DNA of 64,000 bases from Mycobacterium sp. (GCA_025965515.1 JAOPWU010000149.1:430-64429); one strand, 5' to 3'. Positions 4,019 through 64,000 are shown, counted from the stretch's first letter. The notes: generated by a model from the sequence alone, not told the origin. Program-made: numbers and translations.

Positions 4019-4032
4019 GAGAACTGAAACCA

Positions 4033-16563: not shown

Positions 16564-16603
16564 CCGACACCGCTGCAAAACCGCCGCCAACGAGAGGTCA
16601 CCT

Positions 16604-28421: not shown

Positions 28422-28527
28422 GCCACACCTCCTTGTGTGCGCCGGCCGGCATGACCGGCGCCACAGAGCCTTCCCTTCGTGGAGGGAACCGGTTGGCAAT
28501 GGCACCGAAATGTGCACGTGATGTGGG

Positions 28528-44879: not shown

Positions 44880-44881
44880 CC

Positions 44882-46708: not shown

Positions 46709-46724
46709 CCTTCGCGAGTCGGGC

Positions 46725-49325: not shown

Positions 49326-50753
49326 GTGCTGTCGGTGACGAGCCTCGGTGTCCTGCTCACCGGCGTGAACACGTCCTCGCTGGACGTGGCGCTGCCGAGC
49401 GTCGCCCGGCACTTCGACGCCTCACCGACCGCGGCCTCGTGGACGCTGCTGTCCTACATGCTCGTCATGACGATCCTGATCCTGGCGTTCGGCCGGCTGG
49501 CGGACATGGTCGGCCGGCGGCGGCTCTACCTGCTGGGGCTGGGCGTGCTGACGCTCGCCAGCCTCGGGTGCGCACTGAGCCCCACCGTCGGCTGGCTCAT
49601 CGGCTTCCGCGCGCTGCAGGCCGTCGGCGCGGCCGCCATCATCACCAACACGACGGCCCAGCTGACCGACGCGTTCCCCGCCCGGCTGCTCACGACGGGG
49701 CTCAGCCTGAACGTCGCGATCGCCGCGGCTGCGCAGGTGGTGGGCCCGGTCGTCGGCGGCATCACGGCCGGCGCGTGGGGCTGGCGCTGGGTCTTCGCCA
49801 TCAACGTGCCCATCGGCCTGGCCGGCCTCGCCTGGGCGTCGGTGACCCTGCGCCGGACGGCGGCCCCCCCACGCACCGAGCGGTTCGACCTGGGCGGTGC
49901 GCTGCTGTCGTTCGTGGTGCTGGGCGGCATCACGGTGGCGCTGTCGTTCGGTGGCGCCCACGGCTGGACGGATCCGCGGGTGCTGACGGCAGCGGCCGCC
50001 AGTCTGGTGTCCCTGCCGCTGTTCCTCCTCCTGCAGCGCCGCCGGCGTGACCCCCTGGTGGACCTGGCCCTGTTCGCCGATCGGGAGCGGGCGGCCGCCT
50101 ACCTCTCCACGTTCCTGCTGGCCATCGCCCGGTTCGCCGTGGTGCTGCTCGCAGCGCTCTTCCTGCAGGCGGTCCAGGGGCTCGACCCCGCCGGCGCGGG
50201 CGTGCGGGTGCTGCCCGTCGCCGCCGGGCTGTCGATCGCGAGCCCGGTCGCGGGCCGGCTCGCCGCTCGGTTCCCGGCCCGCACCGTCTCCTCCGCCGGG
50301 ATGCTCATCACCGCCGCCGGCCTGGCCGCGCTCGCCGTGCTGGTCAGCCCCCACGTGGGGTATCCGGCGCTCGCCGTGGCGCTGCTGGCGGTGGGCGTCG
50401 GCAGCGGCATCTTCATGACGCCGAACACCGCCTCCATCATGCGGAGCGTGCGGCCCGACCAGCGGGGCGTCGCGAACGGGGTGCGGTCGATGCTGCAGAA
50501 CACGGGCTATGCCGTGAGCACCGCGCTGTCGCTCGCACTGGTCACCCGGCCGCTGTCGCCGGACCAGCAGCGCGCGGCCTACGCGGGGACGCTGGCGCGA
50601 CTGCCGGGCGGCGACCTCGCCGCCTTCATCGGCGGCTACCGCGTCGCGTTCATCGTGCTGCTGAGTCTCTGCCTCGTCGGCGCGGTGGCCAGCCTGGCCC
50701 GGGGGAGTTCTCCCCCGCTGAGCCACCCCGAGCGTGCCGCTGACCTGGGATGA
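49326..50753 (+). CDS. MFS transporter (DHA-type, 12-14 TMS)
   Basis: GTG at residue 221 of ORF 48666..50753 (start uncertain); FGRLADMVGRRRLY motif A; multiple TM helices. Confidence 0.7.
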   Translation: MLSVTSLGVLLTGVNTSSLDVALPSVARHFDASPTAASWTLLSYMLVMTILILAFGRLADMVGRRRLYLLGLGVLTLASLGCALSPTVGWLIGFRALQAVGAAAIITNTTAQLTDAFPARLLTTGLSLNVAIAAAAQVVGPVVGGITAGAWGWRWVFAINVPIGLAGLAWASVTLRRTAAPPRTERFDLGGALLSFVVLGGITVALSFGGAHGWTDPRVLTAAAASLVSLPLFLLLQRRRRDPLVDLALFADRERAAAYLSTFLLAIARFAVVLLAALFLQAVQGLDPAGAGVRVLPVAAGLSIASPVAGRLAARFPARTVSSAGMLITAAGLAALAVLVSPHVGYPALAVALLAVGVGSGIFMTPNTASIMRSVRPDQRGVANGVRSMLQNTGYAVSTALSLALVTRPLSPDQQRAAYAGTLARLPGGDLAAFIGGYRVAFIVLLSLCLVGAVASLARGSSPPLSHPERAADLG

Positions 50754-53529
50754 CCGCACTGACTACCCTGGAGCCGTGAAGGCTCGCACCGAGCGGGAGC
50801 GCCAACGCGAGACGATCGCCGAGGCGCTCACCGACGCGGGCCGGGTGCTGGCCGAGACGGAGCGGTTGCGGGTGGCCGGGGCGCCGCTGCTGGGGACCAG
50901 CGCGGCGCAGTCCCACGCCGACCGCCGGGAGCGCCTGGCGGACCGGCTCACCCGGCTGACGGCCGAGCGCGACCAGGCGGACCGCGACCTCGCGGCCCAG
51001 CAGGCCATCCTCGAGCTGGTGCTGGACAGGCTCCTGCCCTCCCCGTACGCCTCGGTGGCCTGGAACGACCCCCACTGGGAGGAGTGGCAGCCGCCCGAGG
51101 ACCTGCCGGACGCCGTCCGCCTCGGCACCCTGCGGCTGGACACGGCGAGCGGCGCGGTCCCCACGGTCGCCGTCTGCCCGGTCCTCGAGCACCCCACCGT
51201 GATCCTGGCGGAGGAGACGGGGTCCCTGGAGGCCGCCACCACGGCGCTGCAGGTGCTGACGGCCCGGCTCATCGCGTCCTGCCCGCCGGGGACGCTGCGG
51301 GTGTCCCTCGCCGACCTCGCCGCGTTCGGGTCGCGGCTCGGGGCCGTCGGCGGCACCGCCGCGCCGCTGCGGGTGGGGCCCACGGCGACCTCGCCGGTCC
51401 AGCTGCGCGCGATGCTGGATGAGATCGGGACGCACATGGTGCGGCTCAACACGTCCGGGGCGCTCGCGGCGGGCCCCTTGACGGACCAGGTGCGCCAGCA
51501 CCTGCCGGGCCACGAACCGCTGCGGCTCGTCGTCGCCGCCGGGCTGCCCGCCGACCTGCCGACCGACCTGTGGCGGCAGCTGGGGGCCATCGCCCGCAAC
51601 GGGCCCGCCTGCGGCGTCCACCTCGTCGTCCTGCCGGAGGTGTACGCCCGGGAGGACCGCGACAAGCTGCTGACGTTGCTCGGGGAGCACGCCGTGGTGC
51701 TGCGGGCCGCGGACGGGGAGCTGCGGCTGTCGACCTACGACGACACGCTGGGCTCGATCACCCCGTACCGGCTGTTCTCCGACGCCGCTCCGGGCCCGGT
51801 GCAGCGGGCGCTGCTCGCCGAGTCGCTGCCGCGGGCGAGCGTCGGCACGCTGCAGGCCCCCGCGCTGCTCGACATGCTCACCGACGCCCCGGAGCGCAGC
51901 TCGCGCGACGGCCTGGCGATCCCCGCGGGGCTCACCGCGGACGGCGAGATCTGGTCGCTGTTCGTCAACGACGCGGCGCCGCACGGCCTGCTCGCCGGTC
52001 AGAGCGGCTCGGGCAAGAGCACGCTGCTGCACGGCCTGGTGCAGAGCGCCAGCACGCTGTACGCCCCCGACGAGTTGCAGCTCGTGATGCTCGACCTCAA
52101 GCAGGGCGTGGAGTTCGCGGAGTACCTGCAGGACGCCACGACTCCCGAGCTGCCGCACATCCGGCTGCTCGGCATCGATGTGGATGCGTACCAGGCGCTC
52201 GAGGTGCTGCGCTGGCTCGTCGCGGAGAACAGCCGCCGGCAGCGGCTGTTCCTCGCCGCCGGCGAGCGCAGCTCCACGGCCGTCCGCAACATCTACGAGT
52301 ACCGGCGCCTCACCGGGGAGCCGCTGCCGCGGCTGCTCGCCGTCATCGACGAGTTCCAGCAGCTCTTCGCCCCCGACGTCTCCGAGGAGGCGTGGACGCA
52401 CCTGCAGACCATCGCGAAGCTGGGGCGCAGCCAGGGCATGCACCTGCTGCTCGCCACGCAGGGGCTCACGGGCATGGCGGGTGGCATCCGGGAACGCGAG
52501 CCCGTGTTCGCGCAGCTGGCGACGCGCATGGCCCTGCGGTGCCGGCCCGCGGACGCCGTCGAGGTGCTGGGGCCCGGCCGGTCCGGCTCGGTGGCCGAGC
52601 TGCGGCGGCAGGGCGAGATGATCGTGGCCGCCGCCGGCGGCGCGATGAGCGAGGACCAGCGGGTCCGGGTTGCGTTCATGGACCCGCAACAGCGGCGCCG
52701 GCTGCGCACCGAGCGGGCGCTCGCGCTGCCGCCCGCCCCGCCGGTCGACACCGTGCGGGTGATCCGCGGCGACCAGCGCGTCCAGCTCTCCGGGATGCGG
52801 GTGCTCGGGGCGGTCGGTCCCGAGGCCGTGCCGCTCGGCATGACGTGCGTGCTGCGGGAACCCGTGGCGCGGGTGGACCTGCGCCCCCGCCGGGGCCGCG
52901 GGGTCGCGCTGGTGGCGCGCTCGGCGCCGCTCGCCACGGCCGCGCTGGCGACGCCGGCCGCCGTGCTGGCCGCGGGTGACGACGGCCGGCCCGTCGTGAT
53001 CGTCGACGAGGACGGCCGGCACCTGGCGGAGCTGGAGGGGCTCCTGGAGTGGCTGGGCCCCCGCGGCCGGGTGCTGGACGACCTGCCGGCCGACGCGGCG
53101 GGCGCGGCCGCGCTGGCGGCGGCGCTGCCCGAGCCGTCGATCGTGATCCTCCTCGACGTCCGGCACCCGGATCAGTTCGGGCCCGGCACGCTGGCGGAGC
53201 TGGCGAGCGGCAAGGAGGGGCACACGGTCCTCACGTGGCTGCGGCCCGAGGCCTGGCACCAGTGCGCACGGGTGCTGCGCGACATGCAGGTCCGGCTCGG
53301 CCGCGACATGCCCGTGACCGAGCTCTCCGCGACCCTCGGCGCGCGGCCGCCGCACCCCGCGCCCGACGGCTACCTGTGGTGGACGGACCTCGGCTCCGGC
53401 CGGCCGCCGCGGCTCGTGCGGCCGGCCGTCGCGCCGACCGCCGGGTCGCTCGAGGCCGACCTCGGTATCGCCGGGGGCCGTCGGGTCATCTCGCTCGACC
53501 CCGCGTCCCCGCGCCCGGTGGCGCCCTGA
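50734..53529 (+). CDS. FtsK/SpoIIIE family P-loop ATPase (EccC/EssC-like), no predicted TM segment; one intact and flanking degenerate FtsK-like domains
   Basis: Walker A GQSGSGKSTLLHGLV; Walker B LLAVIDEFQQL; HLLLATQ; upstream region (VLEHPTVILAEETGS...HLVVLPE) looks like a degenerate FtsK domain; start at GTG 50734 or GTG 50776. Confidence 0.8.
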   Translation: MPLTWDDRTDYPGAVKARTERERQRETIAEALTDAGRVLAETERLRVAGAPLLGTSAAQSHADRRERLADRLTRLTAERDQADRDLAAQQAILELVLDRLLPSPYASVAWNDPHWEEWQPPEDLPDAVRLGTLRLDTASGAVPTVAVCPVLEHPTVILAEETGSLEAATTALQVLTARLIASCPPGTLRVSLADLAAFGSRLGAVGGTAAPLRVGPTATSPVQLRAMLDEIGTHMVRLNTSGALAAGPLTDQVRQHLPGHEPLRLVVAAGLPADLPTDLWRQLGAIARNGPACGVHLVVLPEVYAREDRDKLLTLLGEHAVVLRAADGELRLSTYDDTLGSITPYRLFSDAAPGPVQRALLAESLPRASVGTLQAPALLDMLTDAPERSSRDGLAIPAGLTADGEIWSLFVNDAAPHGLLAGQSGSGKSTLLHGLVQSASTLYAPDELQLVMLDLKQGVEFAEYLQDATTPELPHIRLLGIDVDAYQALEVLRWLVAENSRRQRLFLAAGERSSTAVRNIYEYRRLTGEPLPRLLAVIDEFQQLFAPDVSEEAWTHLQTIAKLGRSQGMHLLLATQGLTGMAGGIREREPVFAQLATRMALRCRPADAVEVLGPGRSGSVAELRRQGEMIVAAAGGAMSEDQRVRVAFMDPQQRRRLRTERALALPPAPPVDTVRVIRGDQRVQLSGMRVLGAVGPEAVPLGMTCVLREPVARVDLRPRRGRGVALVARSAPLATAALATPAAVLAAGDDGRPVVIVDEDGRHLAELEGLLEWLGPRGRVLDDLPADAAGAAALAAALPEPSIVILLDVRHPDQFGPGTLAELASGKEGHTVLTWLRPEAWHQCARVLRDMQVRLGRDMPVTELSATLGARPPHPAPDGYLWWTDLGSGRPPRLVRPAVAPTAGSLEADLGIAGGRRVISLDPASPRPVAP

Positions 53530-54233
53530 TGACCGCCGAACTGGACCGCTACCTGCGCGAGATGCACGACCTCGCGGAGGCGGCCCGGTACCGCCAGGAG
53601 GCGGACGACGAGACGTGGCAGGCCACGCTCGACGTCCACGCGGCCGTCGTGGCGGGGCCGGACCGGCCCGTCGTCGTGGTCCAGCTCGACCGGGCGGCGG
53701 ACGAGCTGCGCGGGGTGCGGGACGAGGTCTGCCGGATCGCCGGGCTGCCGCGGCCGCTGGTGACGGAGGACCCGGACGCGCCGGGGCTGCCGGGGCCCGA
53801 GGCGGGGGTGGCGCAGTGGTCCGAGCGCCTGACGCAGCAGACCCTCGCGCTCGACCGCGCCCGCGGCCGGCTGCAGGAGCTGGCCGTCGCCTGGCGGATG
53901 GACGAGCGGGACCGTGAACGCTGGGAGGGCAGGCTCGGGCTGCTGCTGGCCCGGCTGGCCGGCCTGCTGGGGCCGGCCCTGCTGGTGCCCCTGCTCCTCG
54001 ACCTGCTCCCCGGGGTCAGCCGGGGCCAGAGCTGGCTGAGCCTGGTCCTGTCCGTGCTGCTGGCGGTCGCCGCGGGGGCGGGGGTGTGGCTCCGCGCCGC
54101 CAACCGGCGGGAGTTCTGCGACCGCGCCCTGGCGCTGACCGACCCCATGGTCAAGCTGCCGCACGCGGCCATCTTGTCCCGGCTTGCTTTGGGATTCGCG
54201 CTTTGGGGGATCCCGTGGCTGGTGGTGCGCTGA
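53529..54233 (+). CDS. membrane protein translationally coupled to the FtsK-like ATPase
   Basis: TGATG overlap with upstream stop; 234 aa; N-terminal soluble helical part then 2-3 TM helices (LLLARLAGLLGPALLVPLLLDLL, SLVLSVLLAVAAGAGVWL, LALGFALWGIPWLVV). Confidence 0.55.
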   Translation: MTAELDRYLREMHDLAEAARYRQEADDETWQATLDVHAAVVAGPDRPVVVVQLDRAADELRGVRDEVCRIAGLPRPLVTEDPDAPGLPGPEAGVAQWSERLTQQTLALDRARGRLQELAVAWRMDERDRERWEGRLGLLLARLAGLLGPALLVPLLLDLLPGVSRGQSWLSLVLSVLLAVAAGAGVWLRAANRREFCDRALALTDPMVKLPHAAILSRLALGFALWGIPWLVVR

Positions 54234-54319
54234 GGGGGAGGTCACGGGTTTCGCACGGCCCGATCATTCACACCCCGGTACTGATTCACTACGGGCAGTT
54301 GCACGGAAGCGGAGGAACC

Positions 54320-54577
54320 ATGGCGATCGACGTCACGAGGCAATCGATCAGCAAGGCGCTCGAGGACGTCACCGAGGCCAAGAAGACGTTCAGCACCGCG
54401 CTCGAAACGGTCGAGGACACGGTCAAGAGCCTCGAGAGCGAGATCTCGGGCAGCGAGAACGACAACGCGAACGAATCGATCTCGCTCGCGAAGAACGCCT
54501 TGGACTCCGCCGAGGAGGTCCTCGCGAAGCTGACCCAGAGCGCGGAGTCGCTGGAGCAGTACCTCCAGGTCCTCTAG
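54320..54577 (+). CDS. small (85 aa) all-helical protein, WXG100/EsxA-like size and architecture but no WXG motif
   Basis: GGAGGAACC RBS directly before ATG; predicted helix-loop-helix; high GC3 codon usage. Confidence 0.6.
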   Translation: MAIDVTRQSISKALEDVTEAKKTFSTALETVEDTVKSLESEISGSENDNANESISLAKNALDSAEEVLAKLTQSAESLEQYLQVL

Positions 54578-54625
54578 CGCCCCCGCCGCCCTGCGGTCTG
54601 CGGCCGCGGCGATTAGGTTGCAGGT

Positions 54626-55609
54626 ATGGACTCTCGCATCCTCGGTACCCGTTCCCCCCTGACCGTCTCCGCCATCGGCCTAGGCTGCATGGGCATGTCG
54701 GAGTTCTACGGCGCCGGCTCGGATGCCGAGTCGACGGCGGTGCTGCAGCTCGCGGTCGAGCTGGGCGTCACGTTCTTCGACACCGCGGACATGTACGGCC
54801 CGTTCCGCAACGAGGAGCTCGTCGGCGCGGCCCTGCGGCCCTACCGCGACAAGGTCGTGATCGCGACGAAGTTCGGCAACCAGCGCGGCGAGGACGGCAG
54901 CTTCCTGGGCGTCAACGGCCGCCCGGAGTACGTGCACAGCGCGTGCGACGCGTCGCTGCGGCGGCTCGGCATCGACACCATCGACCTGTACTACCAGCAC
55001 CGCGTCGACCCGACCGTGCCCATCGAGGACACCGTCGGCGCCATGGCGGAGCTCGTGGCGGCGGGCAAGGTGCGCCACCTCGGCCTGTCCGAGGCGGCCC
55101 CCGAGACCATCCGCCGGGCCGCCGCCGTCCACCCGATCACCGCGCTGCAGACGGAGTACAGCCTGTGGTCGCGCGACCCGGAGGACGAGCTGCTCGCTAC
55201 CGTGCGGGAGCTCGGCATCGGCTTCGTGGCCTACAGCCCCATCGGCCGCGGGTTCCTCTCCGGCGAGATCCGCAGCATCGACGACCTGGCGCCGGACGAC
55301 TTCCGCCGCCGGAACCCCCGGTTCACCGGCGAGAACTTCCAGCGCAACCTCGACCTCGTGGACACCGTCCGGCGGCTCGCGGAGGCCAAGGGGTGCACCC
55401 CCGCGCAGCTCGCGCTGGCCTGGCTGCTGGCGCAGGGCGACGACATCGTGCCCATCCCCGGCACGAAGCGGGAGAAGTACCTGCGGGAGAACGTCGCCGC
55501 CGCGGACATCACCCTCACCCCGGAGGAGCTGGCGGCCATCGACGCCGCCGCACCGCGCGGTGCCGCCGCGGGCGACCGGTACCCGGACATGAGCGGCGTC
55601 GGGCGCTAG
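54626..55609 (+). CDS. aldo/keto reductase
   Basis: 327 aa; [13 protein letters not shown]; [18 protein letters not shown]; HLGLSEA; typical AKR. Confidence 0.9.
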
Positions 55610-57123
55610 TCCGCGGGGCGGTACACCGCCAACCGTGAGGGGGCGACGTGCAGTCGCAGGTCGCGGGGCGCGTCGCCGATCTCGCCGTCGCGGGCGAGCC
55701 GCGGGTGCCCGTTGCTCTCCTCGAGGACGAGGTCGAGCGACCCTCGCAGCCGCTGCTCGTACACCCGTGACCGGCCGAGCCGGCCGGTCAGGACGGCGAG
55801 CGCCAGGCGCGTGCGGGCGAGGCGCACGTCGGCGCGCACCAGCCGGACGTCGATGACGTCGTCGTCGAGCCGCGGCCGCCAGGACGGGGCGAAGCCGGCC
55901 GGCCGGTAGGGGCCGTTGCCGGCGAACAGCAGCCACAGCAACCGCGGCTCGCCGTCGAGCCGCACCGCGATGGGGTGGCCGTGCCGCAGCACGCCCGGCA
56001 GCGCCGCGGCGAGGGCGGGCCACTTGCCGAGCCGGTCCTCGCGCCGTTCCCGCCCCGCCACCAGCTCGGGGTAGACCCCGACGCTGAGCGTGTTCAGGAA
56101 GACCAGCTCCTGCTCCGGGTCGACGGCGTCGTCGGCGGCGCGGCCGACGGTGCAGGCGGCGGCGGTGCCCTCCCGCACCGCCCGCGCCACGTCCTCGACG
56201 CCGGTGATGCAGAGTTCGGCGGCGAAGTGGTTGAGGGTTCCGGCGGGCACGACCACCAGCGGCAGCCCCGCCCGCAGCGCGACCGCCGCCGCTGCGTTCA
56301 CGCTGCCGTCGCCGCCCGCGATGCCCAGGACGCGCGCCTCCCGGGCCGCCTCGCGCAGGGCCGGCCGCAGGTCGCCCTCGACCAGCCGGGCCTCCGCCTT
56401 CGGCAGCTCGGCGAGCAGCGCGTCGACCATCGCCCGGGCACTGCCGTCACCGCTGTCGGCGTTGCCGACGACGATCAGCCCCTCGCCGTCGGGGAGCGCC
56501 GGGACGGTCGCCCGCGCCGCCGCGGCCCGTTCGCCGTGCGGCCGCGCCGGCCACCGCGACCGCACGAAGAGGGCGCAGCCGACCCCGAGCGCCAGACCCG
56601 CCGCGACGTCACCCGGGTAGTGGACGCCGACGTGGACGCGGCCGTAGGCGACGCCCGCCACGACCGGTGCGAGCGCCAGGCCCAGCGCCGGCCGCTCCAG
56701 CGCGACGCCGAGGGTGAAGGCCGCGGCCGACGCGGCGTGCCCGCTGGGGAAGCTGGACGAGGAGGGCACCCGGCGGAGCTGCCGGAGCTGCGGCACCCCG
56801 GCCACGCCCGGCCGGTCGCGGCGGGCCGTGAGCTTCCCGGGCAGGTTGGCCGCGAAGCTCGCGACGCCGAGGCTGACCAGGCCCCGCGTCGCGGCGCGGC
56901 GCTGCCCCGCGGCGGCGAGCGCAGCGGCGGTCACGGCCCAGAGCCCCGCGTGGTTCGCGCTGGTGGTGAGCGGCGGCAGGACGGCGTCGAACAGCGGGCT
57001 CTCGCGCCGGGCCGCGGCGGCGAACAGGGTCCGGTCCGTCCGGTCCAGCCGGTCGACGAGCCGCCGGGCGGGGGAACGGCGGTGGGGGACGAGGGGCGCG
57101 AGGGGCCGGCGGCGAGCGATCAC
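55606..57123 (-). CDS. bifunctional PAP2 phosphatase / diacylglycerol kinase catalytic-domain fusion protein
   Basis: N-terminal PAP2 motifs ([20 protein letters not shown]); C-terminal DAGK_cat (IAGGDGSVN). Confidence 0.8.
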
Positions 57124-57471
57124 CGCCGGGAGCTACCCGAGCGGGCGGTGGCCGAGACCCGCCGTGCGGGTGACGCAGCGTGCCGCCCCGGACGTGATGG
57201 TGGCGTGCGCCGATGCAGGCGGGACGGCGGCCATGCCCGCGGGCCGCCGGACCGGTTTCGCCGCGCGGTCGCTTCCACGGTTGATGGACCCGGCGCGACG
57301 GACCCGTCATCCGTGGAGTTGCACTGCCACCGCATGACCGAAGACGGGCGGGGCGCGGCTTGCCAGGCTCGTCGCAGCTCCCTTGGAGGAGCTATCGCAC
57401 CGAGCAACACGCACCGCTCACGCCGGGTGGCGATCCGCCACCCCGGTCATCAACCCAGGAAGGAGACACGC

Positions 57472-57636
57472 ATGTCGCACGAAGCCACAGGCGTCGCCGA
57501 GTCCGAGCTGCTGACGATCGAGGACCTAAGCATCGAGGAGCTCGACGACGTGGCCGCGGCCGACTGTGCCGGAACGGCCAGCACGGCAAGCACCCCCGTC
57601 AGTACGGCCGCCTGCATCGGCTGCGCCAGCTTCTAG
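57472..57636 (+). CDS. RiPP precursor peptide A (54 aa; double-Gly-type leader plus Cys/Ser/Thr-rich core)
   Basis: AGGAGA RBS; MSHEATGVAESELLTIEDLSIEELDDVAAA-DCAGTASTASTPVSTAACIGCASF; clustered with C39-ABC, P450 and TOMM docking protein. Confidence 0.6.
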   Translation: MSHEATGVAESELLTIEDLSIEELDDVAAADCAGTASTASTPVSTAACIGCASF

Positions 57637-57678
57637 ACCCGTCGAGCTCGCCGGACGAACTCCTGAAAGGACGCACTC

Positions 57679-57843
57679 ATGACGCACGACACCACACCCG
57701 AGCAGCACGTCGACGGCCTCGAGATGGACGAACTGGCGATCGAGGAGCTGACCGAGCTGAGCGGCGCTGCCAGTGCCAGCACGGCCGGGACCGTCAGCAC
57801 CCCCGCAACCGTCGGCACGGCCGCGTGCCTCAGCTGCTTCTGA
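57679..57843 (+). CDS. RiPP precursor peptide B (54 aa; paralogue of A)
   Basis: GAAAGGA RBS; MTHDTTPEQHVDGLEMDELAIEELTELSGA-ASASTAGTVSTPATVGTAACLSCF; same length and shared IEEL leader and STP / AAC..C..F core features. Confidence 0.6.
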   Translation: MTHDTTPEQHVDGLEMDELAIEELTELSGAASASTAGTVSTPATVGTAACLSCF

Positions 57844-57945
57844 TCCCGAGGACGCCCAGCACGGCCGCGTGACACGGCGGCCGTCGGCGCCCTGGCCGCG
57901 CGTCGGGCGCCGGCGGCCACCGCTCGTGACGACAGGGAGGACCCC

Positions 57946-59208
57946 GTGGACGATCTCGCCGCTTCGGCGGTCCGCTTCATCACGGATCCGCACTCGCAAC
58001 AGGTGGGTGACCTGACCATGTTCGCCCGACTGGCCGTGGAGAAGCCGGTGCTGAAGGCCGGCCCGGTGTGGATCGTGTCCCGGCACGACCTGGTCTGCGC
58101 CCTGGCTCGGCACCCGGCCTGTGTCGTCCGTCTTCCGGACCGCTGGCGCCACGCCCCACCACTGAACCCGTCCGTCTCCCGGCTCCTCGAGGGACTCCTC
58201 CCTGTCCTGCCGACCCCCGATCACCGTCGGCTCCGACGCCTGCTCGCCGGGCAGTTCAGCGCGCGGTCCGTAGAACGGCTGCGGGGGGCGGTCGTGCGCA
58301 TCGTCACCGAACTGCTCGCAGGACCGCTGCGCCGAGGCTCGTGCGATTTCGTGAAGGACGTCTGTCTACCCCTGCCCGTCTACACGACCGCGGCCCTGCT
58401 CGGATTGCCGGACGCGGACCGAGGCCAGCTGCTGGCCTGGGCCCAGGCGGTCAACGGCATGGTCCTCGCCGAAGTGACCGGCCGCGTCGGCGGAGCTGGC
58501 GGGGGGCCTCGGAATCCGGGCGTGGACCGCCTCGGCGAACTGGTGGCGTACATCGAGGAACTCGTACGGCGCAGGACCGCGGACCCGGGCGACGACCTGA
58601 TCTCCCGGTTGGCGGCGGAAACAGCCACCGAGGACGGGCACCTTGACCACGACGAGTTGGTCTCCACGGTGCTGCTGCTGTTGATGACGGGTATCGATAC
58701 GGTCGGTAGCGGCTTGGCCAACGTGGTGACCGTGCTGGGGCGCAACAGAGAGGCCTGGGCCCTGGTCGTGGCGGACCCGTCGCGAGCAGGCGCGGCATAC
58801 CAGGAAGCGCTGCGGCTCCTCCCGCCGCTGCCCGTCATGAGCCGCATCACCGAGGCGGATGTCGAGGTCGCCGGACTCACCATCCCCGCTGCCAGCACCG
58901 TGCTGTTGGTCTACGGCGCGGCCAACCTGGACCCCCGAGTCTTCCCGGAGCCCTGCAGTTTCGACCTCGCCCGGCTGCCGACCGGTCAGCTTGCCTTCGG
59001 GCACGGTCCGCACCACTGTCTGGGTGCGAGCCTGGCAGTGCTCCAGGGGGAGGTGGTGCTCGCGGCGCTGGCCCGCTCGGCCCCGTGGTTCCACGTGGGA
59101 GCCGGTCCACGCCGCCGCCGCGACGAACTGGCGTTCCACTCGCCCGCCGAGCTGCCGTTGTGGCTGCGGGCCGAGCCTCCCGGATGCCGTCGACAGGTGT
59201 CCGCATGA
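57946..59208 (+). CDS. cytochrome P450
   Basis: 420 aa; heme-binding FGHGPHHCLGASLA; ExxR (EALR); GTG start with GGGAGG RBS. Confidence 0.85.
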   Translation: MDDLAASAVRFITDPHSQQVGDLTMFARLAVEKPVLKAGPVWIVSRHDLVCALARHPACVVRLPDRWRHAPPLNPSVSRLLEGLLPVLPTPDHRRLRRLLAGQFSARSVERLRGAVVRIVTELLAGPLRRGSCDFVKDVCLPLPVYTTAALLGLPDADRGQLLAWAQAVNGMVLAEVTGRVGGAGGGPRNPGVDRLGELVAYIEELVRRRTADPGDDLISRLAAETATEDGHLDHDELVSTVLLLLMTGIDTVGSGLANVVTVLGRNREAWALVVADPSRAGAAYQEALRLLPPLPVMSRITEADVEVAGLTIPAASTVLLVYGAANLDPRVFPEPCSFDLARLPTGQLAFGHGPHHCLGASLAVLQGEVVLAALARSAPWFHVGAGPRRRRDELAFHSPAELPLWLRAEPPGCRRQVSA

Positions 59209-62200
59209 GGCTGCCTGCGGCGGTGCCGTCGCGAGCAGGCACGGCGACGCCGATCGTCCGTCAGGTCGAGGACGCCGACTGCGGGCCCACCTGCCTCAGC
59301 ATCCTCCTGGCACACCACGGCATCCACGTCCCGTCCGCCACGGTGCGCGCACAGTGTGGGGCGTCCCGCGACGGGTCGACCGCGGCGGACCTTACGCGCG
59401 TGGGCCGGCTCCACGGGGTGGAGATCCGTGGCATCCGTCTGACGGGGGTCGCCGCGGGGCGCGATGACAGCCTCGCAGCAGTGCTGTCGACGGTGCGACG
59501 GCTGCCACTGCCCGCGATCGCGCTGCTCGGCGATAGCCACTTCGTCGTCCTGGAAGCCGTCCGACGGGGCGACCGGGTAGAGCTCAACGATCCCGCCCGT
59601 GGTCGCACCGCCCTCTCGGGACCAGATTTTGTGGCCGCGTTCAGCGGTGTCCTGCTCACGGCCACGGCCACGGCCGCCACCGCCACCGGACTGCAGGGCC
59701 ACACCCCGAGGCGCCACCAGGGCGAGTGGGTGCGCGTCTGCGCGGGCTGGCTCGCGCCCGTGCGCGGTCCGGTCGTGCTGTCGGCCGGTATGGCGTTGGG
59801 CGTGGGCTGCTGTGCAGCGGGCTGCCTCGCCGTCCTGCAGCAGGTCGCCCGCGCGCGGACCGACGGACGCAGCGGCACCGCGGCTGTCGTGCCTGCAGCC
59901 GCTTTGCTGCTCACCCTGCTCGCCGCGTCGCTCGGGTACGCACGACGGCGCCTTGTCACCAGCAGCACCGCGCGCCTGGCTGCTGGGCGCTCGCGGGAGC
60001 TGCTCGACCGGCTGCTGCTGCTGCCGGCCTCCTTCACGGATCGACGCTCCGCGGCGACCCTGCTGGTGCAGGTCCGCTTTGCCGGAACGGCGGGGACCCT
60101 GCTCGCCCTCAAGGTTGCAGCGCTGGTTGGCGCGGTGGCGTTCCTGGTGCCCGTGGTGGTTCTGGTCGGGGTCGTGGCACCGACCCTGCTGGTCGTGGCG
60201 GGGGTGGGGGGCGGTGCCGCGTGGTTGCTTCGGCGCACGGGGGACCGCCGGACGGCGGCCCCGTCGCGGCTCGTCGCGGGAGACCTCGCCCGGCGCTCCG
60301 CGACGGCACGCGTGGCGCTCGCCCGGGGGATCACCCTGCACGCGGACGGATCGGCGGACGACCTGCGCGCCGAGTTGGCCGAGGAGGGCCGACGCGATGT
60401 CCGCACCCGCCGCGAGCTGGCAGTGGGACAGGGTCCGTGGCGGGCGGCCGCTGCGGCGGTGGAGGTCGTCACGCTCGCCGCAGCGGGGTCCCAGGTCGTG
60501 GCCGGGGAGGCCCCCACGATCGGCTTGATCCTGGCCGTCCCGCTGCTGCTGGTGCACGTCCGCGAGGTGGGCGGCCTGCTAGGGGAATTGCCGGACTTCA
60601 CCGCCCGGCTGGAGGTGCTGGACGACATATGCGGCGCCGAGCCCGAGCCGCAGCCCGGCCGGGGACCCGGCGCACCGGACGACGGCAGGCTGCGCGGACG
60701 GGTCGAGCTGCTCGGTCTCACATTCGGATACAGCTCCCGCCGCACCCTGGTCGGCCCGGTCAGCAGCCGCATCGAACCGGGTCGTCGTGCGGTCGTTGTG
60801 GCGCCTCCCGGCGGCGGCGGCTCGACCCTCGTACGGCTGCTGCTCGGGGCCTTGCGGCCGACGGCAGGAGCGGTATTGCTGGACGGCGTCCCGGTGCACG
60901 AGGTCCCCCGGGCTGTGCTGCGACGTTCGGTCGGTTACGTCGCGCAACGGCCCGCGTTCTTCCCGGCGACGGTGCACGAGAACGTCACCATGTTCGACAC
61001 CTCGGTCCGACCGGAGCAGGTACAGGCGACATTGCGGGCGGTCGGCCTCGCGGACGTCGTCGATCGTCGCGGTGGCGCGCTCGTGGCCCGGGTCGCGCCC
61101 GGCGCAGCCAACTTCTCGGAAGGGGAGCGTCGGCTCCTCGCCCTGGCGCGCGCGCTGGTGCGGGACCCCTCCCTCCTGCTGCTGGACGAGCCGGTCGGCA
61201 CGTCCGACGGGGCCCTGGCCCGACGGATCGACGGACTGCTGCGTTCCCGCCGGGTCACCACCGTCCTTGTGACCCGGCGACCCGACCTCATCGGGCCGGA
61301 TGACACCGCCCTTGTCCTGCGCGACGGGCGGTTCGTCCCGTCCGCGGACCGCGGGCCCGGCTGGGACGGCGTGCCCAGCGCCCCGTCACGAGCGCTGCAC
61401 GGTGAGCCCGGCGGACGGCCGTCGATCGCCGCGCCCGAGGTGCCCGAGGTGGTCGGCGGCGACCCCGTTCCTGGCGTGGCGGCGGGGGCAGCGGCGTCGT
61501 GGGAAGGGTGTCGCCGCCGCGTGGCAGCTCGCGGCGCCGTCGCCCTTGCCATGACGGGCGTCGTCGGCGCCCTGGTCTGTGCCCTGCCGGTGGCTGCCGC
61601 CGAGACGGCCCGCACTGCCGGACCCGCCGTGCTCGCGGTGGTCGCCGGGGCAGCCATCGCCCTGACGGGCTTACTCCGGGTCCGCGGGTCCGCGGCCGAG
61701 GCGATTGAGGCGGCGCTGCAGCAGGTCGTGGAGCCGGCGATCTGGGCGCGGCTGCTGGCCCCGCGTGCGCGCCGGTGGCTCCTGTCGGCGCCGGACGCGC
61801 TGGTCCGCACCGGTAGCTGCATCTCCCGCTTGCGGTCGCTGACTGCCCCGGCCGCACTGGACGCGGCGGACGGCGCGGCGGTCCTGCTGATCGCCGTCCT
61901 GGCGTTGGTGGCGACGCATCAGGACGCTGGTCTCGCTGGGGCGACCGTGGTGGTCCTGCTCGTGGGGGCATCGGTGGTCGTCGCCGCCCGGGCCCCGTCC
62001 CTCCCAGACGGGGCGGATGCGGCCGAAGCCCTGCTCCGGGCCGTGCCCGGCGGGCTCGACGAGATCCACCTCGGGATCGCCGAGGAGGCGGTCGCGGCTC
62101 GCGTCACCGGCCCGGTGTGCGCTGGGACAGCAGCGCGGGGGACGTCCGCGGCCCACAGCGAAGCCCTGCTGGGCGCATTCGCGGCGTCGCTCTTCCCGGC

Positions 62201-63221
62201 GCTCGTGACAGCTGTTGCCGCTGCGGTGTGGTGGCGGTCGACACCGGCTTCCGGTCTCCTCACCGGATGCCTGCTGCTGGCGCCGGTCCTATTGGTGGTG
62301 GCCCGGTGTGACGCCGTGGTGCGATCCGTCGGCATCGTCGGCCGTGGTCTGGTGCGTGAGGCCCGCGACGTGGTCGCGTCCGCAGCGCCGCCCACCGCCC
62401 CGGCGATGGCTGTGTCGGGCCCGCAGGCCCGTCGGGTCGGCGGGGCGCCGGGGACGGCCGTCGACCTCTGCGGCGTCTCGCTGCGCTACGCGACCCCCGG
62501 ACTGGCTGCGCCAGGGCTCCCCGCCGTGGCTGAGGTGACGCTGACGGTGGCCCCCGGCGAGTTCGTCGTGCTGGTGGGCGCGTCGGGGGCAGGTGCCTCC
62601 TCCCTCCTCCGGCTCCTGGCAGGTCTGGAGGAACCGGACAGCGGGATCGTGCTGCACGACGGGACGCCGCTTACCGCGCCGGGCGTTTCTTCGGTCCGCC
62701 CCGGCACCGCCCTGCTCGTGCAGGACGCCGACGTGCCACGGGGAACCGTCCGATCGGTGCTCCTCGGCCACGGCGGCTCGGCGGCACCTCAGGACGCAGT
62801 TGCCTGGGCGCTGCTGCGTGCGGTCGGTCTCGAGGACGAGATCCGGGGACTGCCCATGGGTCTGGCGACCGTGGTCCCCAGCGGGTCAGGGGGTTTCGCC
62901 GCCGGACAGCTGCGGCGGTTGGCACTGGCCCGGGCGCTGCGACGTGGCACGCGACTGCTGCTGCTGGACCAGCCGGTCGCGCCCGCCGATCCGGACATCG
63001 GCCGGCTGGCCACCGTGCTGCGCGACCGGCGGGGCACGACGCGCGTCGTCGCCACGGCGGCCCCCGAGCTCGCGTGGGCCGCTGATCGGGTCGTGGTGCT
63101 GTCCGGGGGGAGGGTCGCCCAGGAGGGACGCCCGGATCACCTCCTGCGGACCGGAGGTCCCTGCGGCCGGCTGTTCCCGGATGACCTGTGCCTCACCCGC
63201 CCGCGTTTCCGACAGACCTGA
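59205..63221 (+). CDS. C39 peptidase-domain fused double ABC transporter (two TMD-NBD halves), both NBDs with degenerate Walker A/H-loop
   Basis: ATGA overlap with P450 stop; N-terminal C39 (EDADCGPTCLSILLAHHG); two ABC signature/Walker B regions (FSEGERRLLALARAL + LLLLDEPVG; GGFAAGQLRRLALARAL + LLLLDQPVA); Walker A positions read APPGGGGSTL and GASGAGASSL with no Lys. Confidence 0.8.
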   Translation: MRLPAAVPSRAGTATPIVRQVEDADCGPTCLSILLAHHGIHVPSATVRAQCGASRDGSTAADLTRVGRLHGVEIRGIRLTGVAAGRDDSLAAVLSTVRRLPLPAIALLGDSHFVVLEAVRRGDRVELNDPARGRTALSGPDFVAAFSGVLLTATATAATATGLQGHTPRRHQGEWVRVCAGWLAPVRGPVVLSAGMALGVGCCAAGCLAVLQQVARARTDGRSGTAAVVPAAALLLTLLAASLGYARRRLVTSSTARLAAGRSRELLDRLLLLPASFTDRRSAATLLVQVRFAGTAGTLLALKVAALVGAVAFLVPVVVLVGVVAPTLLVVAGVGGGAAWLLRRTGDRRTAAPSRLVAGDLARRSATARVALARGITLHADGSADDLRAELAEEGRRDVRTRRELAVGQGPWRAAAAAVEVVTLAAAGSQVVAGEAPTIGLILAVPLLLVHVREVGGLLGELPDFTARLEVLDDICGAEPEPQPGRGPGAPDDGRLRGRVELLGLTFGYSSRRTLVGPVSSRIEPGRRAVVVAPPGGGGSTLVRLLLGALRPTAGAVLLDGVPVHEVPRAVLRRSVGYVAQRPAFFPATVHENVTMFDTSVRPEQVQATLRAVGLADVVDRRGGALVARVAPGAANFSEGERRLLALARALVRDPSLLLLDEPVGTSDGALARRIDGLLRSRRVTTVLVTRRPDLIGPDDTALVLRDGRFVPSADRGPGWDGVPSAPSRALHGEPGGRPSIAAPEVPEVVGGDPVPGVAAGAAASWEGCRRRVAARGAVALAMTGVVGALVCALPVAAAETARTAGPAVLAVVAGAAIALTGLLRVRGSAAEAIEAALQQVVEPAIWARLLAPRARRWLLSAPDALVRTGSCISRLRSLTAPAALDAADGAAVLLIAVLALVATHQDAGLAGATVVVLLVGASVVVAARAPSLPDGADAAEALLRAVPGGLDEIHLGIAEEAVAARVTGPVCAGTAARGTSAAHSEALLGAFAASLFPALVTAVAAAVWWRSTPASGLLTGCLLLAPVLLVVARCDAVVRSVGIVGRGLVREARDVVASAAPPTAPAMAVSGPQARRVGGAPGTAVDLCGVSLRYATPGLAAPGLPAVAEVTLTVAPGEFVVLVGASGAGASSLLRLLAGLEEPDSGIVLHDGTPLTAPGVSSVRPGTALLVQDADVPRGTVRSVLLGHGGSAAPQDAVAWALLRAVGLEDEIRGLPMGLATVVPSGSGGFAAGQLRRLALARALRRGTRLLLLDQPVAPADPDIGRLATVLRDRRGTTRVVATAAPELAWAADRVVVLSGGRVAQEGRPDHLLRTGGPCGRLFPDDLCLTRPRFRQT

Positions 63222-63230
63222 GAGGGACCC

Positions 63231-64000
63231 ATGGGCAAAGTCGTTCGCTTCAAGCGCAGCTCTCGCGCAGACGTCGTGGCCGGCGACGGCGTGTACCTGA
63301 CGTCCGAGCGGTCGGGCCAGTACCGGCTGCAGGGTCGCCTCGTCGAGCGGCTGGCGCCGCTGCTCGACGGCGCCCGCAGCCGGGCGGAGGTCGCCGCGGC
63401 CCTGGCCGCCGAGTACCCGGCGGCCCGCGTCGATGCGGTCCTGGACACGCTCGTCGAGGCGGGGCACGTCGTGGACGTTGCGGCCGAGGTAGACCACCGT
63501 GCGGCTGGCTTCTGGGAGATGCACGGCCTGGGCGGCGACGCGGCGCTGAGTGCGGTGGGGGTCGGCTCAGTGGAGTTGGTCCGGCTGGGGGACGTGGACA
63601 CCGTTGGCTTTCGGGAGGCCGCGCAGGAGGCCGGTCTGAGTGTGCGTGGCGCCACCGGTGATCCTGCCGCGCTGACGGTCGTCCTCGTGGACGACTACCT
63701 CAACCCCGAATTGCAAGCCTTCAACGAGCGGGCGCTCGGCGCGGGCCGTGCCTGGCTCCTCGCGAAGCCGATCGGCGGGATGGTCTGGGCGGGCCCGGTC
63801 TTCGAGCCTGGCCGCACCGCGTGCTGGTTCTGCCTGGCTGCACGGCTGAGCTCCAACCAGATGGTCATGACCTACCTGAAGCAGCGGAACGGGTTGGCCT
63901 CGCCGCCGGTCACCGCCCTGGCCGATCTGCCCGCGACGCGAGCGATCGGCGCCCGGCTCGCGGCGTTGCAGGCCGCGTCGTGGTTCGCCGGTGCGCTGGA
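63231..64000 (+). CDS. TOMM-type cyclodehydratase docking/scaffold (E1-like, leader-peptide-binding) protein, 5' portion (truncated by window end)
   Basis: GAGAGGG RBS; N-terminus DGVYLTSERSGQYRLQGRLVERLAPLLDGARSRAEVAAALA matches the remembered TIGR03882 bacteriocin cyclodehydratase domain start (...vfLlserg..vlrGrly..l.plLDGtrt..ei...l). Confidence 0.6.
   Translation, partial: MGKVVRFKRSSRADVVAGDGVYLTSERSGQYRLQGRLVERLAPLLDGARSRAEVAAALAAEYPAARVDAVLDTLVEAGHVVDVAAEVDHRAAGFWEMHGLGGDAALSAVGVGSVELVRLGDVDTVGFREAAQEAGLSVRGATGDPAALTVVLVDDYLNPELQAFNERALGAGRAWLLAKPIGGMVWAGPVFEPGRTACWFCLAARLSSNQMVMTYLKQRNGLASPPVTALADLPATRAIGARLAALQAASWFAGAL

What the first reader, a model, noticed from the sequence alone, without database searches (positions are those of the whole stretch)
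57124..64000. Unusual RiPP biosynthetic cluster: two precursor peptides + P450 + C39-ABC exporter + TOMM cyclodehydratase docking protein (continues past window end)
Two tandem 54-aa precursor genes with strong RBSs are followed by a cytochrome P450, a C39-peptidase/ABC fusion and the N-terminus of a TOMM E1-like leader-binding protein. This architecture predicts an azol(in)e-containing peptide (LAP/TOMM) that is further oxidised or cross-linked by a P450. P450s are rare in TOMM clusters, and the cores do not resemble any named RiPP I can recall. The YcaO and dehydrogenase partners should lie just beyond 64000.
Basis: partly seen in the sequence, partly recalled or inferred. Interest (0 to 1): 0.8.

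Follow-up and report, generated by a model that had tools for sequence, protein, structure and literature searches.

The report
Goadsporin-like azole peptide cluster with P450
This is the front half of a real gene cluster for ribosomal peptides carrying azole rings and dehydroalanines, related to goadsporin, with an extra P450 and two highly conserved precursors; it is a sound genome-mining lead, not a new kind of system.

Summary
The window carries two 54-aa precursor genes (57472-57636, 57679-57843), a P450 (57946-59208), a C39-peptidase/double-ABC fusion (59205-63221) and the N-terminus of a TOMM leader-binding protein (63231 to the window end). Contigs 99.3-99.5% identical to the window show what lies beyond 64000. 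The last gene is a 765-aa fused E1-like/YcaO cyclodehydratase. It is followed by a SagB/ThcOx dehydrogenase, an 847-aa GodF homologue (PDB 9jhq, E 2e-90), a 283-aa LanB-type elimination protein and a DrrA-like ABC ATPase. No pyridine synthase is seen, either there or in syntenic relatives, so this is not a thiopeptide, although NCBIfam would name the precursors "thiocillin family RiPP". The cores are built of X1-(S/T/C)-X2 triplets, as in goadsporin. I predict 7-8 azoles and about 3 dehydroalanines per 24-residue peptide. The same gene order, P450 included, recurs in Streptacidiphilus, Amycolatopsis, a Pseudonocardiaceae MAG, Nonomuraea and Streptomyces; a version without the dehydratase pair occurs in Flexivirga and Rathayibacter. 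Both cores are almost invariant while the enzymes are 42-75% identical. What the P450 does is unknown. No paper on this family was found. Verdict: an uncharacterised variant of a known kind, of moderate interest.

The parts
57124..57471 (+). Upstream intergenic region between the divergent PAP2/DAGK gene and precursor A1. It presumably holds the promoter and it includes the A1 ribosome-binding site (GGAAGGAG).
   Evidence: Sequence read. No sigma-70 consensus site was found, which is uninformative for a high-GC actinomycete. The genes upstream are not conserved in relatives, so the cluster starts here.
57472..57636 (+). Precursor A1, 54 aa. The leader ends in LSIEELDDVAAA, a double-glycine-type motif. 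Predicted 24-aa core: DCAGTASTASTPVSTAACIGCASF.
   Evidence: NF033482 33.8 bits against a cut-off of 25. The core is nearly invariant in 9 database peptides and in L008, L009 and L011.
57679..57843 (+). Precursor A2, 54 aa. The leader ends in LAIEELTELSGA. Predicted 24-aa core: ASASTAGTVSTPATVGTAACLSCF, which reads as 8 perfect X1-(S/T/C)-X2 triplets.
   Evidence: NF033482 26.0 bits. Orthologues with near-identical cores occur in L008, L009 and L011. Period-3 count is 8/8, 0/8, 3/8; chance probability about 7e-4.
57875..57922 (+). GC-rich hairpin (18-nt arms, 12-nt loop) between the last precursor gene and the P450. Candidate attenuator or transcript stabiliser.
   Evidence: A 15-19 bp hairpin of unrelated sequence sits at the same place in L007, L008, L009 and L011. 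The whole-region fold z-score is not significant.
57946..59208 (+). Cytochrome P450, 420 aa, CYP107-like. Tailoring enzyme whose site of action is unknown.
   Evidence: PF00067. The best solved relatives are generic hydroxylases such as EryF, E 6.5e-48. Heme Cys358, ExxR and the I-helix motif are conserved in 11 orthologues at the same cluster position.
59205..63221 (+). C39 peptidase + ABC half-transporter + second ABC half-transporter, fused in one 1338-aa ORF. Predicted role: leader cleavage and export.
   Evidence: PF03412 and two PF00005 stretches, plus TIGR03796/TIGR03797 best hits. Residues 1-713 and 779-1324 align to two separate genes in L007, L008 and L012. Independent assemblies L001, L002 and L086 also carry the fusion.
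63231..64000 (+). N-terminal 256 aa of a 765-aa fused cyclodehydratase (RRE/E1-like domain followed by YcaO). It runs off the window.
   Evidence: TIGR03882 55.9 bits. The full-length protein in L001 and L086 scores TIGR03604 257.9 bits and matches LynD, TruD and MusD at E 3e-189 to 1e-173.

Best explanation
The window holds the first half of an operon that makes two linear azole- and dehydroalanine-containing peptides of the goadsporin type.

**Shown by sequence.** The cluster has two precursors, a P450, a C39-ABC-ABC exporter and a fused RRE/E1-YcaO cyclodehydratase. In near-identical contigs these are followed by a SagB/ThcOx FMN dehydrogenase, a GodF-like glutamyl-tRNA-dependent Ser/Thr glutamylase, a LanB-type glutamate-elimination protein and a DrrA-like ABC ATPase. 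Relatives add an ABC-2 permease, a histidine kinase and a response regulator.

**Inferred mechanism.**
1. The N-terminal RRE of the cyclodehydratase binds the conserved leader segment (L-x-I-E-E-L-x-x-V).
2. YcaO and the dehydrogenase convert the middle residue of each X1-(S/T/C)-X2 triplet to an azole: 7 in A1 and 8 in A2.
3. The GodF/GodG pair dehydrates Ser residues that sit just before an azole: about 3 per peptide.
4. The P450 adds an oxidative modification, most likely a hydroxylation. The site is unknown; the invariant azole-Pro unit is a weak candidate.
5. The C39 domain cuts after the AAA (A1) or SGA (A2) double-glycine-type site, and the fused ABC transporter exports two 24-residue products.
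6. The second ABC system gives self-protection.

The bioactivity and target are unknown.
For: - **Continuation beyond the window.** L001 is 99.5% identical to window 52885-64000. L086 encodes proteins 99-100% identical to those of L001. Together they give the downstream genes.
- **Enzyme identities.** TIGR03882 + TIGR03604 cyclodehydratase, TIGR03605 dehydrogenase and TIGR03891; PF14028 for the 283-aa protein.
- **GodF homology.** The 847-aa protein matches PDB 9jhq, 'Goadsporin biosynthetic protein', over its full length at E 2.3e-90. It matches the thiopeptide enzyme TbtB (6ec7) only at 1.8e-11.
- **Elimination protein.** A profile of the 283-aa protein hits the elimination domains of MibB (E 3e-18), NisB and a full-length LanB. 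It aligns a conserved HxxxNR motif. No pyridine synthase chain is hit at E up to 10.
- **No further enzymes.** No second PF14028 gene or other enzyme follows the ABC genes in L009, L011, L008, L012 or L007.
- **Core periodicity.** In A2, S/T/C fill 8 of 8 in-phase positions and 0 of 8 in the next register. The pattern holds across 18 family cores. Goadsporin has the same X1-(S/T/C)-X2 rule, with Dha at a Ser preceding an azole (PMC5303826; PMC11583998).
- **Co-variation.** Flexivirga and Rathayibacter clusters lack GodF/G, and their cores never have Ser at X1.
- **Leader.** It fits L(-12) S/A(-11) E(-8) L(-7) V/L(-4) G/A(-2) A/G(-1), the double-glycine consensus expected for a C39 exporter (read).
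- **P450.** It keeps all catalytic signatures.
- **Published definition.** Goadsporin clusters are described as a fused cyclodehydratase + B protein + split LanB without the [4+2] enzyme (PMC4603692; PMC10676384).
Against: - No chemistry exists: every modification site is predicted.
- The cluster beyond 64000 is read from contigs that are 99.3-99.5% identical to the window, not from the window itself. In that lineage nothing is known past the start of the gene after the ABC ATPase (L086 ends there; the metagenome scan found nothing longer).
- The 847-aa protein has no Pfam or NCBIfam hit, so its assignment rests on the PDB match.
- GodH (acetyltransferase), GodI (Ffh-type immunity) and GodB are absent, so this is not a goadsporin orthologue.
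- The link between the P450 and the central [STC]-Pro is imperfect. L080 has STP but no P450.
- The precursors score above the cut-off of a thiopeptide-family HMM.
Confidence: 0.78

Rival explanations
1. It is a thiopeptide cluster. After azole and Dha formation, a [4+2] enzyme would join two dehydroalanines into a pyridine macrocycle, and the P450 would decorate it as in berninamycin or nosiheptide.
For: Both precursors pass NCBIfam NF033482, 'thiocillin family RiPP', and a homologue carries that name in NCBI (P0130). A split LanB and a TIGR03891 'thiopeptide-type bacteriocin biosynthesis protein' are present. From my own knowledge, P450s are common in thiopeptide clusters.
Against: There is only one PF14028 protein per cluster. 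It overlaps the stop of the GodF-like gene. Its profile matches LanB elimination domains and no pyridine synthase chain. About 6 kb downstream of the ABC genes in five relatives holds only a permease, a kinase and regulators. The dehydratase is far closer to GodF than to TbtB. A periodic core with an azole at every third residue is a LAP design.
Confidence: 0.06
2. The P450 is a cross-linking enzyme, not a hydroxylase. It would form a C-C, C-N, C-O or C-S bridge, or carry out an oxidative decarboxylation. The products would then be cyclised azole peptides of a kind not yet described.
For: RiPP P450s that cross-link side chains or decarboxylate are known (cittilins and BotCYP, cited in PMC10676384). 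The P450 sits directly after the precursors and is kept even in clusters that have lost the dehydratase. The nearly invariant cores suggest a tightly constrained three-dimensional product.
Against: The cores lack the paired Trp/Tyr/His residues used by known cross-linking RiPP P450s. The only aromatic residue is a C-terminal Phe, which is replaced by Ile, Val or Gly-Gly in orthologues. The P450 has the ordinary acid-alcohol pair of monooxygenases, and its nearest solved relatives are hydroxylases.
Confidence: 0.13
3. It is a lanthipeptide-like product. Dehydroalanines made by the split LanB would react with the C-terminal cysteines to give thioether rings, with only a few azoles.
For: A LanB-type dehydratase pair and two or three Cys per core are present.
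Against: No LanC-type cyclase was found in the window, in L086 or in relatives. Every Cys occupies the azole position of a triplet. Clusters lacking the dehydratase keep the Cys.
Confidence: 0.03

Closest known systems
Goadsporin (god cluster, Streptomyces sp. TP-A0584) and the related spongiicolazolicins
   Same: Both have a fused C/D cyclodehydratase, a SagB-type dehydrogenase, a split LanB (the GodF homologue matches at E 2.3e-90 over its full length), no [4+2] enzyme and a linear product. The cores are built of X1-(S/T/C)-X2 triplets with Ser before an azole as the Dha site. A2 shares the TVST motif with goadsporin's ATVST.
   Different: This cluster has two conserved precursors instead of one and 24-residue cores instead of 19. 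It has a P450. Leader removal and export use a C39-ABC-ABC fusion instead of the membrane peptidase GodB. There is no GodH acetyltransferase. Immunity is by a DrrAB-like ABC system with a two-component regulator instead of the Ffh paralogue GodI. The cores carry an invariant central [S/T/C]-Pro.
Thiopeptides (thiocillin, lactazole, berninamycin)
   Same: The leader and precursor are similar enough to pass NF033482. Both use YcaO + dehydrogenase + split LanB chemistry. P450 tailoring is common in thiopeptides (from my own knowledge).
   Different: No pyridine synthase is present. The core lacks the Ser-rich or Cys-rich compact design and shows strict period-3 spacing instead.
Cyanobactin heterocyclases and oxidases (LynD, TruD, PatD; ThcOx/CyaGox)
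   Same: The cyclodehydratase aligns end to end with LynD, TruD and MusD (E 3e-189 to 1e-173). The dehydrogenase aligns with CyaGox (E 1e-68). The acidic leader motif (LSIEELDDV) recalls the PatE recognition sequence LAELSEEAL; that is a recollection and was not tested here.
   Different: There are no PatA/PatG proteases or macrocyclase, and no cassette structure.
NHLP/Nif11-type bacteriocin exporters (TIGR03796 + TIGR03797)
   Same: These are the best-matching transporter models. They share an N-terminal C39 peptidase and paired ABC subunits.
   Different: Scores are far below the equivalog cut-offs (421 against 853; 263 against 709). The two subunits are fused into one polypeptide here. The leaders are not NHLP or Nif11.

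Membership tests
[quoted passage not shown] | YcaO cyclodehydratase with an E1-like/RRE leader-binding partner | tested here: met
   TIGR03882 is above cut-off in the window. TIGR03604 scores 257.9 against a cut-off of 219 in the full-length protein of 99%-identical contigs.
[quoted passage not shown] | FMN-dependent SagB-type dehydrogenase | tested here: met
   TIGR03605 scores 167 against a cut-off of 78; PF00881 and PF22767 also hit. The gene lies beyond the window and is read from near-identical contigs.
[quoted passage not shown] | Short precursor with a Cys/Ser/Thr-rich core | tested here: met
   11 of 24 core residues are S/T/C in each peptide, in a period-3 pattern.
Goadsporin type (azoles + dehydroalanines, linear) | Split LanB: a glutamylation protein (GodF) and a separate elimination protein (GodG) | tested here: met
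   PDB 9jhq 'Goadsporin biosynthetic protein' matches at E 2.3e-90 over the full length. The 283-aa protein hits PF14028, and its profile hits MibB/NisB elimination domains.
Goadsporin type (azoles + dehydroalanines, linear) | No [4+2] pyridine synthase | tested here: met
   None is found in L086 up to its end, nor within about 6 kb downstream in L007, L008, L009, L011 and L012. The far downstream part of the window's own lineage has not been seen.
Goadsporin type (azoles + dehydroalanines, linear) | Core of X1-(S/T/C)-X2 units, with Dha arising from a Ser preceding an azole | tested here: met
   The pattern is present in the sequences. Ser at X1 co-varies with the presence of GodF/G. The rule is taken from PMC5303826. 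The actual modifications are unproven.
Goadsporin type (azoles + dehydroalanines, linear) | GodH N-acetyltransferase, GodI Ffh-like immunity protein and GodB peptidase | tested here: not met
   No such genes are found in the window, L001, L086 or relatives. A C39-ABC and a DrrA-like ABC take their places. The cluster is therefore goadsporin-like, not a goadsporin orthologue.
Thiopeptides | Precursor of the thiocillin family | tested here: met
   NF033482 scores 33.8 and 26.0 bits against a cut-off of 25.
Thiopeptides | Pyridine/dehydropiperidine synthase (TclM/TbtD/LazC-like) | tested here: not met
   There is a single PF14028 protein, of elimination type. No pyridine synthase chain is hit at E up to 10, and there is no extra gene in relatives.
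Cyanobactins | PatA/PatG subtilisin-like proteases with a macrocyclase | tested here: not met
   None is found among the called genes. Only the heterocyclase and oxidase are cyanobactin-like.
P450-cross-linked RiPPs (biarylitides, cittilins, atropitides) | Core with paired aromatic residues (Trp/Tyr/His) that the P450 couples | tested here: not met
   The cores contain at most one Phe, and it is not conserved.
NCBIfam NF033629 RiPP_CPAC precursor subfamily | Score above the curated cut-off (60 bits) | tested here: not met
   Scores are 22.6 and 24.5 bits. The relation is distant. Streptomyces relatives carry the ..TCPAC.. or ..GCPSS.. centre.

The most novel reading that the evidence does not exclude
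The two almost invariant peptides A1 and A2 are the two halves of a two-component linear azole peptide, which would be the first of its kind. The conserved P450 would install a modification not yet seen in LAPs, at or next to the invariant azole-Pro unit. The family would then be a distinct, widespread actinobacterial RiPP subclass with its own mode of action.
Probability: 0.2. Interest if true: 0.65.

Novelty: new variant of a known kind. Interest (0 to 1): 0.45.

Why it matters
Few linear peptides that combine azoles with dehydroalanines have been characterised; the papers I read name goadsporin and the spongiicolazolicins. This cluster represents a family found in at least seven actinobacterial genera and in many soil metagenomes. 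It has two co-conserved precursors and a dedicated P450. Core sequences are far more conserved than the enzymes, which argues for a specific molecular target. The family offers:
- a route to new bioactive scaffolds;
- a test of whether LAPs can act as two-peptide systems;
- a new substrate class for RiPP P450 chemistry.

It does not challenge any current concept of RiPP biosynthesis.

Tried and rejected
- **Looking up the window's own exporter protein** (59205-63221) to extend the contig: not on record.
- **Homologue search with the N-terminal 248 aa of the GodF-like protein:** one weak hit only.
- **Metagenome scan with the GodG-like protein** to see further downstream in the same lineage: only three short, distant contigs.
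- **Searching all fetched loci for the goadsporin core:** none.
- **Literature searches** for core sequences, goadsporin + P450, split LanB + P450, spongiicolazolicin and 'thiocillin family RiPP': no paper on this family. One search was wasted because 'GodF' matched 'Godfrey'. The spongiicolazolicin paper is not held, so its cluster could not be compared.
- **Dehydrazoles** (PMC10676384): rejected because they use a DUF4135/LanM-type dehydratase.
- **Promoter and terminator consensus scans:** nothing found. The fold of the A2-P450 spacer is not significantly more stable than shuffles, so the hairpin rests on its conserved position only.
- **Thiopeptide, lanthipeptide, cyanobactin and biaryl-P450 readings:** rejected on missing defining genes or residues.
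Full report

Yes. The ORF list and the sequence show five genes on the + strand:
- two 54-codon genes, at 57472-57636 (A1) and 57679-57843 (A2);
- a 420-codon gene at 57946-59208;
- a very long ORF whose most likely start is 59205 (it overlaps the preceding stop by 4 nt, as in relatives) and which ends at 63221;
- a gene starting at 63231 that runs off the window.

A1 has a GGAAGGAG ribosome-binding site, A2 has AAAGGA, and the P450 has GGGAGGA before a GTG start.

Family searches gave:
- **A1 and A2:** both exceed the curated cut-off of NCBIfam NF033482, 'thiocillin family RiPP' (33.8 and 26.0 bits; cut-off 25).
- **Third gene:** a cytochrome P450 (PF00067).
- **Long ORF:** a C39 peptidase domain and two ABC ATPase domains. 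Its best models are TIGR03796 and TIGR03797, both below cut-off.
- **Last gene:** matches TIGR03882, 'TOMM precursor leader peptide-binding protein' (55.9 bits; cut-off 36.9).

The gene upstream on the other strand (55606-57123) is a PAP2/diacylglycerol-kinase fusion. The genes further upstream are an aldo-keto reductase, two hypothetical proteins and an FtsK/SpoIIIE ATPase. None of these recurs next to the cluster in other genomes, so the cluster begins at the A1 promoter region.

**2. What lies beyond 64000?**

Looking up peptide A2 by exact sequence found 11 contigs. The longest, L001 (NCBI GCA_025965665.1, JAOPWL010000159.1), is 99.5% identical to window 52885-64000 with a single 9-nt indel. 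A second contig, L086, was reached through the dehydrogenase. Its proteins are 99-100% identical to those of L001.

Together they show that the last window gene encodes a 765-aa fused protein with an E1-like/RRE N-terminal part and a YcaO domain (TIGR03882 + TIGR03604, 257.9 bits; cut-off 219). It is followed by four genes that touch or overlap:
- a 522-aa SagB/ThcOx dehydrogenase (TIGR03605);
- an 847-aa protein;
- a 283-aa PF14028/TIGR03891 protein;
- a 336-aa DrrA-like ABC ATPase.

The 847-aa protein has no Pfam or NCBIfam hit. It nevertheless aligns end to end with PDB 9jhq, 'Goadsporin biosynthetic protein', at E 2.3e-90. It matches the thiopeptide dehydratase TbtB only at 1.8e-11. I read it as a homologue of GodF, the glutamyl-tRNA-dependent glutamylation half of a split LanB.

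A 12-sequence profile of the 283-aa protein hits the C-terminal elimination domains of MibB (E 3e-18), a full-length LanB-type protein (9g04) and NisB. A conserved H-x-x-x-N-R motif lines up with theirs. No pyridine synthase chain appears, even at E up to 10.

The cyclodehydratase aligns over its full length with the cyanobactin heterocyclases LynD, TruD and MusD (E 3e-189 to 1e-173). The dehydrogenase aligns with CyaGox (E 1e-68).

**3. Relatives.**

A scan of species-representative genomes with the dehydrogenase gave 79 loci. tblastn with all nine cluster proteins shows one conserved gene order: precursor(s), P450, C39-ABC, second ABC, fused cyclodehydratase, dehydrogenase, GodF-like, GodG-like, ABC ATPase.

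This order is found in:
- Streptacidiphilus jiangxiensis (L007);
- a Pseudonocardiaceae MAG (L008);
- Amycolatopsis saalfeldensis (L009);
- two further Amycolatopsis (L010, L011);
- Nonomuraea (L012);
- four Streptomyces (L041, L042, L047, L051).

In L042 the adjacent ABC ATPase was not detected. Enzyme identities to the window lineage are 36-75% overall and 42-75% in the closest group (L007-L011).

Downstream of the ATPase, the closest relatives carry an ABC-2 permease, and most of them a HisKA_3 histidine kinase and a LuxR-type response regulator. No further enzyme follows. The thiopeptide reading needs a second PF14028-fold protein, the [4+2] pyridine synthase, so it is not supported.

Two kinds of variant cluster also occur:
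- L080, L046, L052 and L056 have the same enzymes but no P450 within 10 kb.
- Flexivirga caeni (L068) and Rathayibacter agropyri (L070) keep the P450, exporter, cyclodehydratase and dehydrogenase but lack GodF/G.

**4. The precursors.**

An HMM built from the first peptides found precursor genes in all these loci. L008, L009 and L011 each carry an A1 and an A2 orthologue in tandem.
- **A1 core.** It is DCAGTASTASTPVSTAACIGCASF in the window. It has at most two or three substitutions in nine database peptides with quite different leader N-termini.
- **A2 core.** ASASTAGTVSTPATVGTAACLSCF is equally constant.

This contrasts with 42-75% identity for the enzymes and points to strong selection on both products.

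The leaders end in L-S/A-x-E-E-L-x-x-V/L-x-G/A-A/G. This is the classical double-glycine leader register, with hydrophobic residues at -4, -7 and -12 and Glu at -8. It fits a C39 exporter and places the cleavage after AAA (A1) and SGA (A2).

The cores have a striking period of three. A2 reads ASA-STA-GTV-STP-ATV-GTA-ACL-SCF. S/T/C occupy all 8 middle positions, none of the 8 third positions and 3 of the 8 first positions. The chance probability is about 7e-4. A1 has the same design with a one-residue skip after the central Pro. Seventeen of the 18 family cores examined show the pattern.

This is the X1-(S/T/C)-X2 rule worked out for goadsporin. There the middle residue becomes an azole, and a Ser just before an azole becomes dehydroalanine (PMC5303826). 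The same tripeptide units are described for spongiicolazolicins, phazolicin and nostatin (PMC11583998). Goadsporin's ATVST even reappears as GTVST in A2.

An internal control comes from the two clusters without GodF/G. Their cores have Gly or Ala, never Ser, at every X1 position.

On this basis I predict:

| Peptide | Azoles | Dha | Neutral monoisotopic mass |
|---|---|---|---|
| A1 | 7 | 3 | 1996.71 Da |
| A2 | 8 | 3 | 1958.76 Da |

These masses exclude any P450 step.

**5. The P450.**

Its heme-ligand motif (F-G-H-G-x-x-x-C-L-G), ExxR and the I-helix G-x-D-T are invariant or nearly invariant in 11 orthologues. Its closest solved relatives are ordinary hydroxylases of the CYP107 type. It always sits between the precursors and the exporter.

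All cores in P450-containing clusters have a central [S/T/C]-Pro. Most cores in P450-free clusters do not, but L080 is an exception. A hydroxylation at or near that unit is therefore my best guess. It is only a guess.

The cores lack the paired aromatic residues used by known cross-linking RiPP P450s. The single C-terminal Phe is not conserved.

**6. Other features.**

- **Hairpin.** A GC-rich hairpin (57875-57922) lies between A2 and the P450. Hairpins of 15-19 bp with unrelated sequences sit at the same place in four relatives. This is the usual position of an attenuator that keeps precursor transcripts in excess. The thermodynamic z-score of the spacer is not significant.
- **Fused exporter.** In the window lineage the two ABC genes are fused through a Pro/Gly/Ala-rich linker (residues about 714-778). 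Relatives have two genes. The fusion is seen in independent assemblies.
- **Codon composition.** Cluster genes have third-position GC of 0.84-0.89, against 0.96-0.98 in the flanking genes. This is consistent with horizontal acquisition.

**7. Comparison with what is known, and novelty.**

Published definitions describe goadsporin clusters as a fused cyclodehydratase, a B protein and a split LanB without the [4+2] enzyme (PMC4603692). Thiopeptides and goadsporin/spongiicolazolicins are named as the two RiPP groups that combine azoles with LanB-made dehydroamino acids (PMC10676384).

The present cluster meets those defining features, so it works like a goadsporin pathway. It is not a goadsporin orthologue:
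- GodH, GodI and GodB are missing.
- Export and leader removal use a C39-ABC.
- Immunity uses an ABC-2 system.
- There are two co-conserved precursors and a P450.

I found no paper describing this family. The library lacks many subscription-journal papers, and the spongiicolazolicin cluster could not be compared.

I rate it a new variant of a known kind. It is a good, well-delimited genome-mining target. The open questions are the P450 chemistry and the possible two-peptide action. It is not a surprise to a RiPP specialist. Interest: 0.45.

Noticed in passing
window 1-20000 versus 22000-64000: Base composition changes sharply: 63-68% GC in the first 20 kb against 72-79% afterwards. Third-position GC is about 0.8 against 0.95. 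This could be a genomic island or a chimeric join in a metagenome-assembled contig.
   Followed up: no
window 59205-63221: The C39-ABC gene and the second ABC gene, which are separate in relatives (L007, L008, L012), are fused here into one 1338-aa ORF. The link is a Pro/Gly/Ala-rich stretch, and the first ~136 residues of the second subunit have no alignable counterpart. L001, L002 and L086 also carry the fusion.
   Followed up: partly
window 57875-57922; L007 2098-2135; L008 2552-2589; L009 2736-2771; L011 2759-2792: A strong hairpin of different sequence sits at the same position (last precursor gene to P450) in five lineages. It is a probable attenuator or stabiliser.
   Followed up: partly
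L068 (Flexivirga caeni) 2144-11254; L070 (Rathayibacter agropyri) 1921-11161: A reduced version of the cluster has the P450, exporter, cyclodehydratase and dehydrogenase but no GodF/G dehydratase. Its cores (for example GGGTFGTFGSAGCPGSFGTFGCGS) have Gly or Ala at every X1 position.
   Followed up: partly
L047 636-1859; L051 752-1978; L041 1125-1829 (Streptomyces): Three to five tandem precursor genes per cluster have diverse cores. All share GT repeats and a central G/T-C-P unit (for example ..STTCPACIGTAFSWS). These probably belong to the family behind NCBIfam NF033629, 'RiPP_CPAC'.
   Followed up: partly
L013-L038 and about 30 other Streptomyces loci: A large group of SagB-type dehydrogenases is about 51% identical to the one here but has no adjacent fused cyclodehydratase. 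A distant YcaO (about 25% identity) lies 8-9 kb downstream. This is a different, unexamined RiPP family.
   Followed up: no
window 43086-47978 and 26568-28517 (-): An asparagine synthase, a GNAT/ATP-grasp fusion protein and an M42 aminopeptidase lie in a row, and a second asparagine synthase paralogue lies elsewhere. This may be a small amino-acid-ligase pathway.
   Followed up: partly
window 50734-54577: A 931-aa FtsK/SpoIIIE-family ATPase is followed by a 234-aa protein with no family hit and an 85-aa coiled-coil protein. The set is reminiscent of a secretion or DNA-translocation module.
   Followed up: partly
P0122: NCBI labels the identical A1 peptide 'MAG: hypothetical protein JWM48_1974 [Mycobacterium sp.]' on an 88-kb contig. 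A GC content of 72-79% is unusually high for Mycobacterium, so the MAG's taxonomic label is doubtful.
   Followed up: no
L051 2151-3362: The P450 orthologue in this Streptomyces locus contains an in-frame stop in the aligned stretch. It may be a pseudogene or a sequencing error.
   Followed up: no
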